A stretch of 64,000 nucleotides of DNA from positions 17,734-81,733 of the forward strand of contig CAVUYS010000017.1 of assembly GCA_963745745.1 (NCBI GenBank). The letters run 5' to 3'. The position numbers and the translations under genes were made by a program. Positions 15,588 to 22,085 of the stretch are shown piece by piece. Position 1 is the stretch's first letter. Each line of letters begins with the position of its first letter. This DNA comes from an uncultured Spirochaetota bacterium (GTDB taxonomy: Bacteria > Spirochaetota > Spirochaetia > SZUA-6 > DRHE01). The notes beneath the pieces were generated by a model, which worked only from the letters and a program-made list of their open reading frames with translations, was not told the origin of the DNA and searched no databases.

Positions 15588-16952
15588 ATGGACGGGCACC
15601 CGGACTCCAGGCCGCGCCTGCGCCTGTTGTCCCCCGAGCACAGCAGGCGCGTGCTGGAGGCCAGCTTCCGGATCCTGGCGGAAACCGGGGTCCTGGTGCG
15701 GGACGCTGAGGCCCTCCGGGCGCTGGCCGGGGCCGGCTGCGCCCAGGGCGCCGACGGGCGGGTGCGCTTCCCGCAGGTCAGGGTGCGTCGCGCCCTGGAA
15801 GGCATACCCCGCCGGCTGGTGCTGTTCGACCGCCACGGGAGGGCGGCGGTGGACACGGCCGACCGGGTTCCCCGCTTCGCCCTGGGCGCCAACTGCCTGC
15901 GCACCCTGGACTGGCGCACCGGCGAGCAGCGCTCCTCGACCCTGGCGGACATCCGCGAAACCGCGCGCCTGTGCGAAAAGCTGCCCAACCTCGAGCTGGC
16001 CGCCACCCTGGGCAACCCCAACGAGCTGCCCGCCCACGAGCAGGCCCTGGCCGCCGTGCGGGCCCTGGCTGAATACACGCGCAAGCCCCTGGTCTTCGCG
16101 GCCCACGACGAAGTGGAGGACGAAGCCATCTGGGGCTGGCTGGCCGGGCAGGCCGGCGGCTGGCAGGCCCTGGCCGACCGCCCCTTCGCCCTGGAGCTGA
16201 CCGGCCCCAGCTCGCCGCTCGAGCTGGGACAGGAGGCCTGCCGCCGCCTGGCCTTCACGGCGCGCCAGCGCCTGCCCGTAGTCTGCTACCCGGCGCTGCT
16301 GCCCGGCTTGAGCGGTCCGGTGACCCTGGAAGGGGCCCTGGCCCAGTCCACCGCGGAGATCCTGGCCGGCCTGGTGGTGCACCAGTTGGCCGGGCCAGGC
16401 TCCCCCGTGCTAACCGGCTCCTCGATCCTGCCCATGGACCTGAAGAGCGGCGGCATCGCCTACGGCTCCCCGGAATACGCCATGGCCGGTCTGGCTGCCG
16501 TGGACCTGTTCTCCGACCTGGGCATCCCCTCCTGGACCGGCGCGGGCTGCTCGGACGCGCACACCGTCGACGCCCAGGCCGCCGCCGAGGCAGGCATGAA
16601 CCTGCACCTGGCGGCGCTCTCGGGCACCGCCTTCATCCACAACCTGGGCTACCTTTCGGCCGGCAAGACCGGATCGCTGGAGATGCTGCTGCTCTGCGAC
16701 GAGCTGGCCGGCTCCGCCCGCCGCCTGGCCGCCGGCCTGACGGTGAGCGACGAGAACCTGGCCGTGGAAGCCAGCGGGCGGGCCGCCGCCGGGAGCTCGT
16801 TCCTGCTCGACGAGCACACCCTGGCCCACATGCGCTCCGCGATGTGGACCCCGGGGCTGTTCGAGCGCTCCGGTCTGGAAGACTGGCAGGGCCGGGGCTC
16901 ACCGGGCCTGCAGAAACGGCTGCGCGGGCGCTTGCGGGAGCTGCTGGGATGA
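15588..16952 (+). CDS. MttB-family methyltransferase (trimethylamine methyltransferase superfamily), non-pyrrolysine paralog 1
   Basis: 454 aa, uninterrupted (no in-frame TAG); ..LLSPEHSRRVLEASFRILAETGV.. N-terminus and ..SSFLLDEHTLAHMRSAMWTPGLFERS.. C-terminus typical of MttB/MtgB-like proteins. Confidence 0.85.
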   Translation: MDGHPDSRPRLRLLSPEHSRRVLEASFRILAETGVLVRDAEALRALAGAGCAQGADGRVRFPQVRVRRALEGIPRRLVLFDRHGRAAVDTADRVPRFALGANCLRTLDWRTGEQRSSTLADIRETARLCEKLPNLELAATLGNPNELPAHEQALAAVRALAEYTRKPLVFAAHDEVEDEAIWGWLAGQAGGWQALADRPFALELTGPSSPLELGQEACRRLAFTARQRLPVVCYPALLPGLSGPVTLEGALAQSTAEILAGLVVHQLAGPGSPVLTGSSILPMDLKSGGIAYGSPEYAMAGLAAVDLFSDLGIPSWTGAGCSDAHTVDAQAAAEAGMNLHLAALSGTAFIHNLGYLSAGKTGSLEMLLLCDELAGSARRLAAGLTVSDENLAVEASGRAAAGSSFLLDEHTLAHMRSAMWTPGLFERSGLEDWQGRGSPGLQKRLRGRLRELLG

Positions 16953-18139
16953 GCACAGCCCTGCTGGAAGAGGCGCGGGCTCTGCTTCCCGAGCTTACTG
17001 CGCTGCGCCGCGAGCTGCACCGCCATCCGGAACTCGGAGGCCAGGAGCGGCGCACCGCCGCGCTCATCGCCGAGCGTCTGAAACGTCTCGGCCTGCAGGT
17101 GCGCACGGGGGTGGCCGGCACGGGGGTGGTCGGCCTGCTGCAGGCCCGGCCCGGGGCGCCGCTGATCGCCCTGCGGGCCGATATCGACGCGCTGCCCGTC
17201 GAGGAGGCCAACGACGTTCCCTACCGCTCCACGGTGCCGGGGGTGTCCCACGCCTGCGGGCACGACGGCCATGCCGCTATTCAGCTCGGCGCGGCCGAGC
17301 TGCTCTGCCGCCACGCCGCGGAGTTGCCCGGCAACGTTCTGTTCCTGTTCCAGCCCAGCGAGGACACCCTGCCGGGGGGCGCTTTGGCCATGCTGCGGGA
17401 AGGAGTGCTGGAGGGCCGGCCGGTGCGGGCCGTGCTCTCCCTGCATCTGAATCCGCGCTTTCCGGCGGGAACGGTGGCCGTGAAGGAGGGCTGGGCCACC
17501 TGTTCCTCCCTCAGCTTTCGCTTGCGAATCACCGGCCGCGGCGGGCATGTGGCCGAGCCCGGGCAAACCGTCAACCCTTTGCTCCTGTCCGCCGCTCTCC
17601 TCACCGAGGCGGAAGCGTTACGCCGGGAGCTGGCCGGCGAGACCGAACCGCTGATCCTGGGGTTCGGCTCGGTGCACGGTGGGACCGCGGCCAACGTCAT
17701 CCCTGATTACGTGGAGGTTGCCGGCAGCCTGCGGGCCCCAACCCCCGAGCTGCTGCAGCTCTCCCTCGCGCGCTTTCAGAAGCTGGCCCGCGCGGTCACC
17801 GAACCGGCCGGGGCCCGCGTCGAGTTCCAGCTGGAGGAGGGCTACCCGCCGGTGTTCAATCATCCCGGCCTGACCGCGCGCTTCCGGGAGTCCGCCGCTG
17901 CGGTTGTCGGGACCGAACGCCTCGCCGCGCTGAAGCAGGTGCTGGCCACCGGCGACGACGTGGCCTATTTCCATCAGCGCGTCCCCGGCGTGTACTGGCA
18001 GCTGGGCTCCGGCGACCCCGCCCGGGGACTGGCCCACCCGCTGCACAGCCCGCGTTTCGACTTTGGCGATGAGCTTCTCGCTTTGGGCGCCGCCGTGCAG
18101 GCCCGGGCAGCCGGGGAGCTGCTGGCCGGGGAGCCCTGA
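16949..18139 (+). CDS. M20-family amidohydrolase (peptidase M20D, N-acyl-amino-acid amidohydrolase / hippurate hydrolase-like)
   Basis: ATGA overlap with the upstream stop; ..RRELHRHPELGGQERRTAALIAERL.., HACGHDGH metal site, 397 aa from MSTALLEEA. Confidence 0.8.
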   Translation: MSTALLEEARALLPELTALRRELHRHPELGGQERRTAALIAERLKRLGLQVRTGVAGTGVVGLLQARPGAPLIALRADIDALPVEEANDVPYRSTVPGVSHACGHDGHAAIQLGAAELLCRHAAELPGNVLFLFQPSEDTLPGGALAMLREGVLEGRPVRAVLSLHLNPRFPAGTVAVKEGWATCSSLSFRLRITGRGGHVAEPGQTVNPLLLSAALLTEAEALRRELAGETEPLILGFGSVHGGTAANVIPDYVEVAGSLRAPTPELLQLSLARFQKLARAVTEPAGARVEFQLEEGYPPVFNHPGLTARFRESAAAVVGTERLAALKQVLATGDDVAYFHQRVPGVYWQLGSGDPARGLAHPLHSPRFDFGDELLALGAAVQARAAGELLAGEP

Positions 18140-18157
18140 GCCGCGGGCCCACTGGAG

Positions 18158-20508: not shown

Positions 20509-21262
20509 ATGAGCGAAAAAGCCCTGGGCGATTACATCATCACGGTCAAGGACGTCTGCAAGACCTTCCCGGGCGGCGTCACGGCGGTGAAGGACTTCTC
20601 CACCGACATCCGGCGAAGCGAGGTGCTGGTGATCATGGGCCCCTCAGGCTCCGGCAAATCCACCCTGCTGCGCTGCCTGAACGGCCTGGAGGAACGCGAC
20701 TCGGGCACCATCGTCGTGGACGGCATCCCCCTGGACGAGAACAAGAAGAACCGTCTGGAGATACGCAAGGAAGTGGGGATGGTTTTCCAGTCCTTCAACC
20801 TGTTCCCCCACCTCACCGTGGCCGACAACGTGAACCTGGCCCAGCTGCGGGTGCGCAAAAAGAGCCAAGGAAGAGGCCATGGCCATGACCCGCGACATGC
20901 TGACCAAGGTCGGCATCCTGAACAAGATCGACGCCTACCCGGCCCAGCTTTCCGGCGGGCAGCAGCAGCGCGTGGCCATCGCCCGCGCCCTGGCCATGAT
21001 GCCCAAGGTGATGCTGTTCGACGAGCCCACCTCGGCCCTGGACCCGGAGATGATCAACGAGGTGCTGGACGTCATGAAGAACCTGGCCCGGGAGGGCATG
21101 ACCATGGTGGTGGTGACCCACGAGATGGGCTTCGCCCGGGAGGTGAGCGACTGGGTCATCTTCATGGACGAAGGCCGAGTGGTGGAGACAGGGACGGCGG
21201 AGCACTTCTTCACCAACCCGCAGGAGGAACGAACCAAGTCATTCTTGAGCCAAATCTTATAA
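20509..21262 (+). CDS. Polar amino-acid ABC transporter ATP-binding protein; frameshift near 20870
   Basis: Walker [10 protein letters not shown] in ORF 20509-21570; [15 protein letters not shown], Walker B and H-loop in ORF 20879-21262 (..[27 protein letters not shown]..). Confidence 0.75.
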
Positions 21263-21280
21263 AGGAAGAGGGAGGAAGAG

Positions 21281-22085
21281 ATGAGGAAAGCATGGGTTCT
21301 GGCGGTGATCGCGCTGGTCGCGATCGCTGGACTCGTCGGGGCGCAGGCCAAGGACAGCTTGATCGACGAGATCGCCAAGCGCGGCGTTCTGAAAGTCGGG
21401 GTGGACGTGTTCGTGCCCTGGGTCTTCAAGGACAAGACCGGCAACCTGGTCGGCTTCGAGATCGACGTGGCCAAGCGGCTGGCCCAGGAGATGGGCGTGA
21501 AGCCTGGAGTTCGTGGAGACCAAGTGGTCGGGCATCATCCCCGCCCTGCTCACCAACAAGTTCGACGTGATCATCGGCGGCATGGGCTCCACCACCGAGC
21601 GCAGCCTCAAGGTCAACTTCACCATTCCGTACGACTACTCCGGCATGTCCATCTGCGCCAACAAGAAGATGGCCCCGGGCTGGACCAGGCTGGAGGACTT
21701 CAACAAACCCAACGTCATCCTGACCGTGCGCACCGGCGCCACCCCCGTGGCCGCGGCCAAGAAGTTCATGCCCAAGGCGCAGGTGCGCCAGTTCGACGAC
21801 GAGGCCCAGGCCTACCAGGAAGTGGTCAACGGGCGCGCCCACGCCTGCGTATCCTCGCAGCCGGGGCCCGAGAACTGGGTCAACGAACACCCGGACGTGC
21901 TGTACCTGCCCTTGAGCGGCAAGACCTTCACCAAGGAGCCCATCGCCTTCGCATTGCGCAAAGGCGACCCGGAAGCGATCATCTTCTTCAACAACTGGAT
22001 CACCCGCATGGAGTGGGAAGGCTGGCTGGAGGAGCGTCACCAGTACTGGTTCACCGGCAACGAGTGGAAAAAACTCACCCAGTAG
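21281..22085 (+). CDS. Amino-acid ABC substrate-binding protein, family 3; frameshift near 21505
   Basis: Signal peptide MRKAWVLAVIALVAIAGLVGA, ..LKVGVDVFVPWVFKDKTGNLVGFEIDVAKRLA.., continuing ..TKWSGIIPALLTNKFDVIIGGMGSTTERS.. in ORF 21513-22085. Confidence 0.7.

What the first reader, a model, noticed from the sequence alone, without database searches (positions are those of the whole stretch)
15588..22085. Two non-Pyl MttB paralogs flanking an M20 amidohydrolase and feeding from a polar-amino-acid-type ABC importer
The operon is mttB-like, M20D hydrolase, mttB-like, then permease, ATPase, SBP, permease. It has ATGA coupling between gene 1 and 2 and 19-nt and about 50-nt gaps elsewhere. Bacterial non-Pyl MttB homologs characterised so far act on glycine betaine, proline betaine, carnitine or gamma-butyrobetaine, and these are taken up by BCCT or OpuA/ProU systems. 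A His/Gln/opine-type importer plus an N-acyl-amino-acid-type amidohydrolase instead points to a quaternary or N-methylated amino-acid conjugate, which is first deacylated and then demethylated. Duplicate MttB genes suggest sequential removal of two methyl groups or two substrates.
Basis: partly seen in the sequence, partly recalled or inferred. Interest (0 to 1): 0.55.

Follow-up and report, generated by a model that had tools for sequence, protein, structure and literature searches.

The report
Uncharacterised methylamine demethylase island with amino-acid importer
The genes are real and belong to a larger conserved gene island that probably imports a methylated amino-acid-like compound, strips its methyl groups with vitamin-B12-dependent enzymes of two uncharacterised types and ferments the remainder; the substrate is unknown.

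Summary
In this sequence the ATPase and SBP genes each carry a 1-nt insertion. Relatives lack both, and similar insertions break other genes in the window, so they are probably assembly errors. The second permease (22142-23023) lies beyond the stated end.

Neither paralog is a glycine-betaine enzyme. They are 27-30% identical to D. hafniense MtgB. Both replace the carboxylate-binding Arg312, which the literature reports as conserved in all five characterised quaternary-amine enzymes, with Trp (MttB1) or Phe (MttB2). This holds in 120/120 and 119/120 homologs.

The same importer follows MttB2 and/or MttB1(-M20D) orthologs in Spirochaetota and Chloroflexota. M20D accompanies MttB1 only in some loci.

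In relatives the cassette runs directly into a GNAT-like gene, IclR, a corrinoid protein, a non-Pyl MtmB homolog, indolepyruvate-type oxidoreductase and an ADP-forming acyl-CoA synthetase. That module sits at 31.9-40.6 kb here. The closest solved SBP (61% identity) binds L-tryptophan.

Best reading: uptake, corrinoid-dependent N-demethylation and fermentation of a methylated, possibly aromatic, amino acid. This is a new variant of a known kind.

The parts
15550..15578 (+). Sigma-70-like promoter match (TTGACC-17-TATGAT) in the 119-bp divergent intergenic region upstream of MttB1
   Evidence: 3 matches in the region against 0.3 expected. This is a consensus match only; its -10 element lies very close to the ATG.
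15588..16952 (+). MttB1: non-Pyl MttB-family methyltransferase, 454 aa. Its clade has Trp at the MtgB Arg312 position and Cys at the Pyl position.
   Evidence: Pfam PF06253 E=2e-75. TIGR02369 288 bits, below the 525 cut-off. Residue mapping. An identical protein (P0121) lies on a 144,621-bp public contig.
16949..18139 (+). M20D-subfamily amidohydrolase, 396 aa, start overlapping the MttB1 stop (ATGA)
   Evidence: Best solved relatives are ILL2 (1xmb) and YxeP (1ysj). The MttB1-M20 pair recurs.
18164..19561 (+). MttB2: non-Pyl MttB-family methyltransferase (465 aa from ATG 18164; the ORF opens at TTG 18158). Its clade has Phe at the Arg312 position and Ala or Ser at the Pyl position.
   Evidence: Pfam PF06253 E=2e-89..
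19589..19628 (+). Intergenic 11-bp inverted repeat (GCATCCGGCGG...CCGCCGGATGC) overlapping a promoter-like match (TTGACA-17-TATACT)
   Evidence: Sequence read; promoter scan. Function not tested.
19659..20504 (+). ABC permease 1 (polar amino acid type; the ORF opens at 19614)
   Evidence: PF00528 and TIGR01726. It is 281 aa in relatives.
20509..21262 (+). ABC ATPase, broken by a 1-nt insertion near 20865
   Evidence: After removing one C it reads as an intact 250-aa protein.
21281..22085 (+). Periplasmic binding protein (SBP_bac_3), broken by a 1-nt insertion near 21503
   Evidence: The closest solved relative is 9e2b, bound to L-tryptophan: 61% identity to the model of P0243, which is 87% identical to the repaired window SBP.
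22097..22131 (+). GC-rich 14-bp hairpin followed by UUUUU, between the SBP and the last permease
   Evidence: -34.5 kcal/mol, z = -3.67. Role as attenuator or mRNA stabiliser is inferred.
22142..23023 (+). ABC permease 2
Evidence: PF00528.
31938..33098 (+). GNAT-like protein (weak Pfam match). In relatives it directly follows the ABC cassette.
   Evidence: PF00583 E=6.6e-7; 75-95% identical copies in L002, L050, L058 and L064. No solved relative found.
33180..33948 (+). IclR-family regulator (1-nt insertion near 33312)
33969..34608 (+). Corrinoid (B12-binding) protein, the likely methyl acceptor of the methyltransferases (1-nt insertion near 34060)
   Evidence: PF02310 and PF02607. The GDLHEIG motif is visible. 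Indel located.
34608..35991 (+). Non-Pyl MtmB homolog with Val at the Pyl position (1-nt insertion near 35876)
   Evidence: PF05369 E=1.1e-78. Alignment to 1l2q..
36003..38474 (+). Indolepyruvate:ferredoxin oxidoreductase-type enzyme (alpha and beta parts in one ORF)
   Evidence: TIGR03336 516.8 bits, below the 650.9 cut-off but far above other 2-oxoacid oxidoreductase models. It follows the MtmB homolog in L002, L050 and L058.
38455..40560 (+). ADP-forming acyl-CoA synthetase (ACD type)
6468..8655 (+). Molybdopterin oxidoreductase of the DMSO-reductase superfamily (frame break near 6560). Possibly associated.
   Evidence: It is 70% identical to the copy beside MttB paralogs in L049. No equivalog assignment.
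8618..15468 (-). Divergent operon: SBP_5, two permeases, two ATPases (Dpp/Opp type) and an MmgE/PrpD-family protein. Possibly associated.
   Evidence: The combination PrpD plus paired ABC ATPase genes plus MttB recurs in Anaerolineae loci L015, L016, L030 and L041; PrpD beside MttB (without that exact ATPase arrangement) also in L017, L023 and L045.

Best explanation
The finding is the front part of a modular catabolic island for a methylated amino-acid-type compound.

1. A polar-amino-acid-family ABC importer takes the compound up.
2. MttB1, MttB2 and probably the non-Pyl MtmB homolog each transfer an N-methyl group to the dedicated corrinoid protein encoded at 33969-34608.
3. M20D, and perhaps the GNAT-like protein, handle an N-acyl or peptide-linked form of the substrate or product in the lineages that carry them.
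4. The demethylated amino acid is transaminated. Aminotransferase genes flank the island in relatives.
5. Its 2-oxo acid is oxidised by the IOR-type enzyme, and the acyl-CoA yields ATP through the ADP-forming synthetase.

Shown here: the gene identities, the active-site differences from MtgB and the conserved synteny. Inferred: the substrate class, the direction and order of the steps, and the fate of the methyl group. The substrate is probably not one of the known ones. A methylated aromatic amino acid, such as a tryptophan-type betaine or N-methyl form, is the most specific guess that fits.
For: Family assignments.

Active site:
- MtgB residues Y97/R312/H348/F356 (PMC13080624) map to A or L/W/H/G in MttB1 (position 97 differs between the two alignments) and S/F/H/G in MttB2.
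- W is present in 120/120 MttB1-clade homologs and F in 119/120 MttB2-clade homologs.
- In a neighbour-joining tree the two clades form one superclade, apart from MtgB and Pyl-MttB.

Synteny:
- The same permease-ATPase-SBP-permease cassette follows MttB2 orthologs in L001, L002, L004, L005, L007 (Anaerolineae), L046 (Caldilineaceae) and L051.
- It follows MttB1-M20D in L049 (complete Spirochaetaceae genome CP070696) and L050.
- GNAT-like, IclR, corrinoid protein, MtmB-like and IOR follow the cassette in L002, L050 and L058, directly so in L002 and L050.
- Aminotransferases flank it in L001, L002, L049, L050 and L051, and flank MttB2-like genes in L006, L025, L026 and L028.

Binding protein:
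- The closest solved relative binds L-tryptophan.
- MttB-linked SBPs mostly differ from the unlinked ones, the solved structure included, at two conserved positions: Asp for Ser and Phe for Met. The SBPs of L002 and L049 keep Ser or Gly at the first position.
Against: - No methylcorrinoid:tetrahydrofolate methyltransferase (MtgA/MtqA type) or RamA-type activase was recognised in the window or in the fetched flanks, so the methyl acceptor is unknown.
- Loss of Arg312 could mean the substrate has no acidic group, which sits uneasily with an amino-acid-type importer.
- Homologous importers occur without MttB genes in lower-G+C loci, one carrying a Deltaproteobacteria-named SBP.
- M20D, the molybdopterin enzymes and the aminotransferases vary from locus to locus.
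- In this window about 9 kb of unrelated genes separate the cassette from the corrinoid/MtmB/IOR module.
- Five genes of the island carry frame breaks in this sequence, and a sixth break lies in the possibly associated molybdopterin oxidoreductase gene.
- The tryptophan in 9e2b may be a co-purified ligand rather than the physiological one.
Confidence: 0.55

Rival explanations
1. The substrate is an N-acyl conjugate of a methylated amino acid. M20D deacylates it first, and the two MttB paralogs then remove two methyl groups in sequence.
For: M20D is translationally coupled to MttB1. The MttB1-M20 pair recurs at 49-100% identity in a Logan contig, L049 and L050, and an M20D gene lies upstream of the cassette in L057. 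A GNAT-like gene is also conserved in the island.
Against: M20D is absent from L001, L002, L005 (MttB2 92% identical), L007, L046 and L051. MttB1 and MttB2 each occur alone beside the importer. The order of steps cannot be derived from sequence.
Confidence: 0.15
2. These are ordinary demethylases for an already known quaternary amine (glycine betaine, proline betaine, carnitine, gamma-butyrobetaine or phosphocholine), and the ABC system merely lies next to them.
For: All characterised non-Pyl MttB members use such substrates (PMC13080624, PMC12155760, PMC8604678). Family membership is certain.
Against: Three of the four glycine-betaine-binding residues are missing. Arg312, reported as conserved in all five characterised enzymes, is replaced in both clades. 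Identity to MtgB is 27-30%. The importer co-varies with the genes in two phyla. No BCCT or MFS transporter was seen beside them.
Confidence: 0.1
3. The substrates are non-acidic methylamines, such as trimethylamine, dimethylamine or a choline-like compound, handled without pyrrolysine.
For: Like Pyl-MttB, both clades have an aromatic residue at the Arg312 position and Gly at the F356 position. A non-Pyl MtmB homolog, the family now known to act on tetramethylammonium and choline (PMC13044021), is part of the island.
Against: The importer is of the amino-acid type. Its SBP keeps the Arg that binds the ligand carboxylate in related amino-acid-binding proteins (my reading of the alignments). Aminotransferase and IOR/ACD neighbours imply an amino-acid skeleton. 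His348 is retained.
Confidence: 0.1
4. In this organism the system is decaying. The frame breaks in the ATPase, SBP, IclR, corrinoid and MtmB-like genes are real, so the importer and methyl carrier do not work.
For: Five 1-nt insertions relative to two or three relatives each.
Against: Codon-position G+C bias stays strong on both sides of each break. Unrelated genes also show breaks, including the molybdopterin oxidoreductase and the sugar ABC permease. The five breaks compared with relatives are all single-base insertions, which fits a systematic assembly error. Relatives are intact.
Confidence: 0.1

Closest known systems
MtgB/MtgC/MtgA glycine betaine:THF methyltransferase system (Desulfitobacterium hafniense; PDB 2QNE, 9YCE)
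   Same: Both window proteins match the same Pfam family (PF06253) and lack pyrrolysine. A separate B12-binding corrinoid protein is encoded nearby. His348 is retained.
   Different: Identity is 27-30%. Y97, R312 and F356 are replaced. The neighbour is an ABC polar-amino-acid importer rather than a BCCT-type carrier. No MtgA-type gene was found in the window.
MtpB, MtcB, MtyB and MthB of Eubacterium limosum (proline betaine, carnitine, gamma-butyrobetaine, phosphocholine)
   Same: Non-Pyl MttB superfamily members that methylate a corrinoid protein. They sit in multi-paralog genomes and carry accessory enzymes specific to the substrate (MthK kinase there, M20D here).
   Different: PMC13080624 reports that all of them keep Arg312; both window clades do not. 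MtcB and MtyB lie next to MFS transporters (PMC8604678). I could not obtain their sequences, so there was no direct comparison.
Pyl-dependent trimethylamine methyltransferase MttB (PDB 7XCL)
   Same: Aromatic residue at the Arg312 position, Gly at the F356 position, and a similar G-[LI]-P-S-aromatic ... SD[AS][KH] motif around the Pyl site.
   Different: No pyrrolysine: Ala in MttB2 and Cys in MttB1. TIGR02369 scores are 288 and 333 against a cut-off of 525. Identity is 29-30%.
MtqB/MtqC of Methanococcoides methylutens (non-Pyl MtmB homolog acting on tetramethylammonium and choline; PMC13044021)
   Same: The island holds a non-Pyl MtmB homolog directly downstream of a corrinoid protein gene.
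   Different: The host here is bacterial. The pair is co-located with MttB paralogs, an IclR regulator and IOR/ACD. Orthology to MtqB was not tested.
Desulfonauticus SBP 9E2B (L-tryptophan bound) and the Ws0279/AncCDT-1 lineage of amino-acid-binding proteins
   Same: 61% identity to the model of P0243, itself 87% identical to the repaired window SBP. Same fold and same ABC architecture.
   Different: Most MttB-linked SBPs carry Asp and Phe where 9E2B and the unlinked homologs carry Ser and Met, and S/T-T-T instead of I-x-P. The ligand is therefore likely different. The SBPs of L002 and L049 are exceptions at the first position.
Bacillus subtilis yxe/ytm-type modified-amino-acid salvage operons (recalled from memory, not tested)
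   Same: They combine a polar-amino-acid ABC importer, an M20D deacylase (YxeP is the second-best solved relative), an acetyltransferase and an MmgE/PrpD-family protein.
   Different: Those operons have no corrinoid methyltransferases and act on S-substituted cysteines.

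Membership tests
MttB superfamily (PF06253) | Significant match to the family profile over the full length | tested here: met
   E=2e-75 over residues 9-453 and E=2e-89 over residues 6-463.
Pyl-dependent TMA methyltransferase MttB (TIGR02369 equivalog) | Score above the curated cut-off, and an in-frame UAG (pyrrolysine) at the active site | tested here: not met
   288 and 333.5 bits against a cut-off of 525. 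The ORFs are uninterrupted. The Pyl position holds Cys (MttB1) or Ala (MttB2).
MtgB glycine betaine methyltransferase | Glycine-betaine-binding residues Y97, R312, H348 and F356 (PMC13080624) | tested here: not met
   only H348 is kept. MttB1 has A or L (the two alignments differ), W, H, G. MttB2 has S, F, H, G.
MtgB glycine betaine methyltransferase | Close sequence relationship to characterised MtgB | tested here: not met
   27% and 30% identity. The two clades group together and apart from MtgB in a neighbour-joining tree. That tree has few reference sequences.
Characterised acidic quaternary-amine MttB enzymes (MtpB, MtcB, MtyB, MthB) | Conserved Arg312 salt bridge to the acidic group of the substrate | tested here: not met
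   PMC13080624 states that Arg312 is conserved in all of them. Trp or Phe occupies the position here, in 120/120 and 119/120 homologs.
Characterised acidic quaternary-amine MttB enzymes (MtpB, MtcB, MtyB, MthB) | Phylogenetic placement inside one of their clades | not tested
   Their sequences could not be obtained with these tools.
Three-component corrinoid methyltransferase system | Cognate corrinoid protein with B12-binding domains and a DxHxxG motif | tested here: met
   Window 33969-34608: PF02310 and PF02607, with GDLHEIG. It lies 14 kb from MttB2 here but within about 2-3 kb of the cassette in L002 and L050 and about 6 kb in L058.
Three-component corrinoid methyltransferase system | Methylcorrinoid:THF (or CoM) methyltransferase, and a RamA-type reductive activase | tested here: inconclusive
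   None was recognised among the window ORFs I read or scanned, or in the gene calls of L001-L005 and L049-L051. The only candidate is a weak MtaA/CmuA-like URO-D protein at 23698-24864 (60 bits against a cut-off of 235). The rest of the genome was not seen.
Polar amino acid ABC importer (PAAT type) | SBP_bac_3 binding protein, HEQRo-type permeases and a GlnQ/HisP-like ATPase | tested here: met
   TIGR01726 at 84 and 55 bits against a cut-off of 42.2. The two ATPase halves match GlnQ, TcyN and EhuA.
M20D amidohydrolase subfamily (TIGR01891) | Score above the subfamily cut-off, with M20 catalytic and dimerisation domains | tested here: met
   314.8 bits against 153.75. PF01546 and PF07687. No equivalog is reached (CpsA 314 against 500; DoeB2 251 against 550).
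Indolepyruvate:ferredoxin oxidoreductase | IOR alpha and beta equivalog scores | tested here: inconclusive
   IOR_alpha 516.8 bits against a cut-off of 650.9, and IOR_beta 69-73 against about 206-238. IOR is by far the best-matching 2-oxoacid oxidoreductase type.

The most novel reading that the evidence does not exclude
Two uncharacterised non-Pyl MttB clades and a non-Pyl MtmB homolog, sharing one corrinoid protein, together strip all N-methyl groups from an aromatic amino-acid betaine or N-methyl amino acid. Tryptophan-type (hypaphorine-like) or histidine-type (hercynine-like) compounds are candidates. The free amino acid is then fermented by way of an aminotransferase, IOR and ACD. This would be the first complete anaerobic N-demethylation route for an amino-acid betaine and a new substrate class for both methyltransferase families.
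Probability: 0.2. Interest if true: 0.75.

Novelty: new variant of a known kind. Interest (0 to 1): 0.55.

Why it matters
Non-Pyl MttB homologs are very numerous in genomes and metagenomes, but only five substrates are known, and all are acidic quaternary amines bound through one conserved arginine. The window contains two well-populated clades, found in wetland and sediment Spirochaetota and Chloroflexota, that lack that arginine. They come with their own importer, corrinoid protein, non-Pyl MtmB homolog and a downstream fermentation module.

This gives a concrete and testable handle on a new substrate class. It also gives a reason not to annotate such genes as glycine betaine or trimethylamine methyltransferases when building methane-precursor budgets.

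Tried and rejected
- **Exact look-up of MttB2.** Both the 467-aa and the 465-aa form returned nothing. The source contig was seen only through MttB1 (P0121), and its DNA was not returned.
- **Supplementary alignment of MtpB, MtcB, MtyB and MthB.** It is not held, so there is no direct clade assignment against those four.
- **Literature search for PDB entry 9E2B.** It gave only chance hits. The entry title came from Foldseek instead.
- **Rfam over the whole window.** No riboswitch or other RNA family was found.
- **My early inference about the SBP.** I had read the loss of the alpha-amine-binding Asp (VSSQP) as meaning a ligand without a free amine. I dropped this, because the Trp-bound 9E2B has lost the same Asp.
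- **The molybdopterin enzymes as formate dehydrogenase or TMAO reductase.** No equivalog is reached; the best scores are about 300 bits against a cut-off of 666. They remain unassigned.
- **The neighbouring aminotransferases as one conserved component.** They belong to two different types, HisC-like and AspAT-like.
- **Literature search for MttB together with hypaphorine, hercynine, trigonelline, stachydrine or trimethyllysine.** None of the 15 top-ranked papers mentions MttB.

Full report
**1. What is there**

The window has about 70% G+C, so spurious ORFs abound. I chose genes by codon-position G+C and by profile matches.

The + strand carries:
- MttB-like 1, 15588-16952, 454 aa.
- An M20D amidohydrolase, 16949-18139, whose ATG overlaps the MttB1 stop as ATGA.
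- MttB-like 2, ORF 18158-19561. It most likely starts at ATG 18164, behind a GGAG.
- A permease, ORF 19614-20504, with a likely start at 19659.
- An ABC ATPase, 20509-21262.
- An SBP_bac_3 binding protein, 21281-22085.
- A second permease, 22142-23023.

Two relatives whose MttB2 is 94% and 92% identical lack both insertions and have intact genes.

The same kind of single-base insertion breaks the IclR, corrinoid and MtmB-like genes further downstream. Frame breaks are also visible in the molybdopterin oxidoreductase and the sugar ABC permease. Coding bias is intact on both sides of each break. I therefore regard them as probable assembly errors, but this is not proven.

**2. What the two MttB paralogs are**

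Both match PF06253 over their full length and have no in-frame stop. They score far below the cut-off of the Pyl-MttB equivalog model. They are 36% identical to each other.

They are 27-30% identical to D. hafniense MtgB and 29-30% identical to a Pyl-containing MttB.

The 2026 structural study of MtgB defines the glycine betaine site as Y97, R312, H348 and F356. It states that R312 is conserved in all enzymes of known function (MtgB, MtpB, MtcB, MtyB, MthB), where it pairs with the acidic group of the substrate (PMC13080624).

The motif around that residue aligns without gaps:

| Protein | Motif |
|---|---|
| MtgB | GVPSRSGGGLNDSK |
| MttB2 | GLPSFGLGGASDSK |
| MttB1 | GIPSWTGAGCSDAH |
| Pyl-MttB | GLPSYVAGSOSDAK |

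The four MtgB positions read S/F/H/G in MttB2. MttB1 has W/H/G at the last three; position 97 reads L in the pairwise alignment and A in the multiple alignment. The Pyl position holds Ala in MttB2 and Cys in MttB1.

Across the 120 best homologs of each protein:
- Phe is present in 119/120 of the MttB2 clade.
- Trp and Cys are present in 120/120 of the MttB1 clade.

In a neighbour-joining tree the two clades, together with two further paralogs from relatives, form one group apart from MtgB and Pyl-MttB. Neither paralog is therefore an MtgB, and both fail the one feature shared by all characterised quaternary-amine enzymes. I could not compare them directly with MtpB, MtcB, MtyB or MthB, because their sequences were not obtainable.

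**3. Is the importer tied to them?**

Named homologs point to Spirochaetia.

The same permease-ATPase-SBP-permease cassette follows MttB2 orthologs in these loci (percentages are MttB2 identity):

| Locus | MttB2 identity | Note |
|---|---|---|
| L001 | 80% | |
| L002 | 76% | |
| L004 | 94% | |
| L005 | 92% | MttB1-MttB2-ABC, with no M20 gene |
| L051 | 77% | |
| L007 | 62% | Anaerolineae |
| L046 | 62% | Caldilineaceae |

The cassette follows MttB1-M20D without MttB2 in two loci. One is L049, the complete Spirochaetaceae genome CP070696 (MttB1 62%, M20D 49%). The other is L050 (76% and 75%). An independent Logan contig repeats the MttB1-M20D pair exactly.

None of the 35 Chloroflexota loci whose MttB2 homolog is 60% identical or less has this importer.

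In the reverse test I searched with the SBP:
- Copies at 80% identity or more lie beside island genes (MttB2, M20D, the molybdopterin enzyme, or IclR-corrinoid-MtmB) wherever the contig is long enough.
- Copies at 52-68% identity from lower-G+C loci (L062 carries an SBP named Deltaproteobacteria) have no MttB within 10 kb.

The importer family is thus broader than the association, but one sub-lineage of it is firmly linked. Most linked SBPs differ from the unlinked ones at conserved positions. They carry Asp for Ser, Phe for Met, and S/T-T-T for I-x-P. The SBPs of L002 and L049 are exceptions at the first position.

**4. The cassette is only the front of a larger island**

In L002 and L050 the cassette runs straight into a fixed module, and in L058 the same module begins about 3 kb downstream. 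In order, the module is a GNAT-like gene, an IclR regulator, a corrinoid protein, a non-Pyl MtmB homolog and an IOR-type 2-oxoacid oxidoreductase. In L064 the GNAT-like gene follows the last permease before the contig ends.

The window holds the same module at 31938-40560, ending in an ADP-forming acyl-CoA synthetase. It is separated from the cassette by about 9 kb, carrying a DeoC-like gene, a URO-D-like gene, a sugar ABC system and a two-component system.

- The MtmB homolog has Val at the Pyl position.
- A non-Pyl MtmB was recently shown to demethylate tetramethylammonium and choline in a methanogen (PMC13044021).
- A HisC-like aminotransferase flanks the island in L001, L002, L050 and L051.
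- An AspAT-like aminotransferase flanks MttB1-like or MttB2-like genes in L049, L006, L025, L026 and L028.
- Unassigned molybdopterin oxidoreductases also recur. One sits at 6468-8655 in the window.

**5. What the binding protein suggests**

The repaired SBP matches PDB 9E2B at 340 bits.

I modelled P0243, a homolog 87% identical to the repaired window SBP (mean pLDDT 89.6). Foldseek returned 9E2B as the top hit at 61% identity. The entry is titled as a Desulfonauticus SBP bound to L-tryptophan.

The next hits were the cationic-amino-acid binder AncCDT-1 and Ws0279. Further down was SAR11_1068 bound to a sulfobetaine, at 27% identity (bioRxiv 10.1101/157495).

9E2B belongs to the unlinked Ser/Met group, so the window protein probably binds something related but different.

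Several observations point the same way:
- the IOR/ACD genes, whose characterised relatives act on arylpyruvates (this is my knowledge of the family, not a test);
- the aminotransferase neighbours;
- the Ser-to-Asp and Met-to-Phe changes, which would suit a cationic, methylated amine.

Together they make a methylated aromatic amino acid the most specific candidate. This is inference, and no tool here can test it.

**6. M20D**

It is a clear M20D-subfamily member. Its best solved relatives are ILL2 and YxeP. It reaches no equivalog model.

It travels with MttB1 in four independent contexts but is missing from six related loci. It looks like an accessory enzyme for an acylated or peptide-linked form. 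It does not look like an obligatory first step.

**7. Regulation**

- Promoter-like matches lie upstream of MttB1 and in the MttB2-permease gap (3 found, 0.3 expected). The second sits inside an 11-bp hairpin.
- A strong hairpin with a U-run follows the SBP gene.
- No Rfam family matches anywhere in the window.

**8. Verdict**

- The link between the MttB genes and the importer holds, and so does their distinctness from the known enzymes.
- The deacylate-then-demethylate order and the two-step relay are not supported by the comparative data.

The system works like the known three-component corrinoid demethylases. It is not a member of any characterised substrate group. I found no description of these clades or of this island in the searchable literature. 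I rate it a new variant of a known kind, of moderate interest.

Noticed in passing
window 20865, 21503, 33312, 34060, 35876; also about 6560 and 26388-27363: Single-base frame breaks hit at least seven genes in 64 kb. The five that could be compared with relatives are all insertions. This looks like a systematic long-read assembly or polishing error rather than gene decay.
   Followed up: partly
window 23698-24864 (-): A URO-D family protein weakly resembles MtaA/CmuA methylcobamide methyltransferases (60 bits against a cut-off of 235). It sits in a minus-strand operon with a DeoC-like aldolase and a sugar-type ABC system, just downstream of the cassette. It could be a methyl-transfer partner, or it could be unrelated.
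   Followed up: partly
window 8618-15468 (-); loci L015, L016, L017, L023, L030, L041, L045: An MmgE/PrpD-family gene and Dpp/Opp-type ABC genes lie divergently upstream of MttB1. PrpD plus paired ABC ATPase genes next to MttB paralogs recurs in Anaerolineae loci L015, L016, L030 and L041, and PrpD lies beside MttB in L017, L023 and L045. This suggests a second, unexplained MttB-linked module.
   Followed up: partly
window 6468-8655 (+); L002, L003, L007, L049, L051, L054: Two types of cytoplasmic-looking molybdopterin oxidoreductase, with an N-terminal Fe4S4 motif, recur directly beside MttB genes. Neither reaches any curated equivalog. Their role in a methyl-transfer island is unexplained.
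   Followed up: partly
MttB1 clade: Cys is invariant (120/120) at the position that holds pyrrolysine in true MttB. Whether it has a catalytic or metal-binding role is unknown.
   Followed up: no
L002 8128-9501, L003 8585-9961, L034 7793-9037: A second, divergent corrinoid plus non-Pyl MtmB pair lies immediately upstream of MttB2 orthologs. Its MtmB is 39-41% identical to the window's and its corrinoid protein 44-45%. It forms corrinoid-MtmB-MttB triads with no recognisable THF methyltransferase. One may ask whether the MtmB homolog could serve as the second methyltransferase.
   Followed up: no
window 20001-22000: G+C drops to 0.63 over the ABC genes, against about 0.70-0.73 over the MttB and M20D genes. 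The ATPase is much more conserved among loci (92-96% identity) than the MttB genes (76-94%).
   Followed up: no
L042 14726-16720: In an Anaerolineales relative, one ORF joins the N-terminal part of an IOR-like gene to the C-terminal part of the acyl-CoA synthetase. It looks like a deletion remnant of the same IOR-ACD pair. An MttB2-like gene, an IclR gene and an aminotransferase lie nearby.
   Followed up: partly
window 42956-64000: TolC-like, HlyD-like and M50-like genes and a SecA-like gene are followed by very large minus-strand ORFs rich in GGxGxD-type repeats. This looks like a type I secretion system with giant RTX-like substrates, unrelated to the finding.
   Followed up: no
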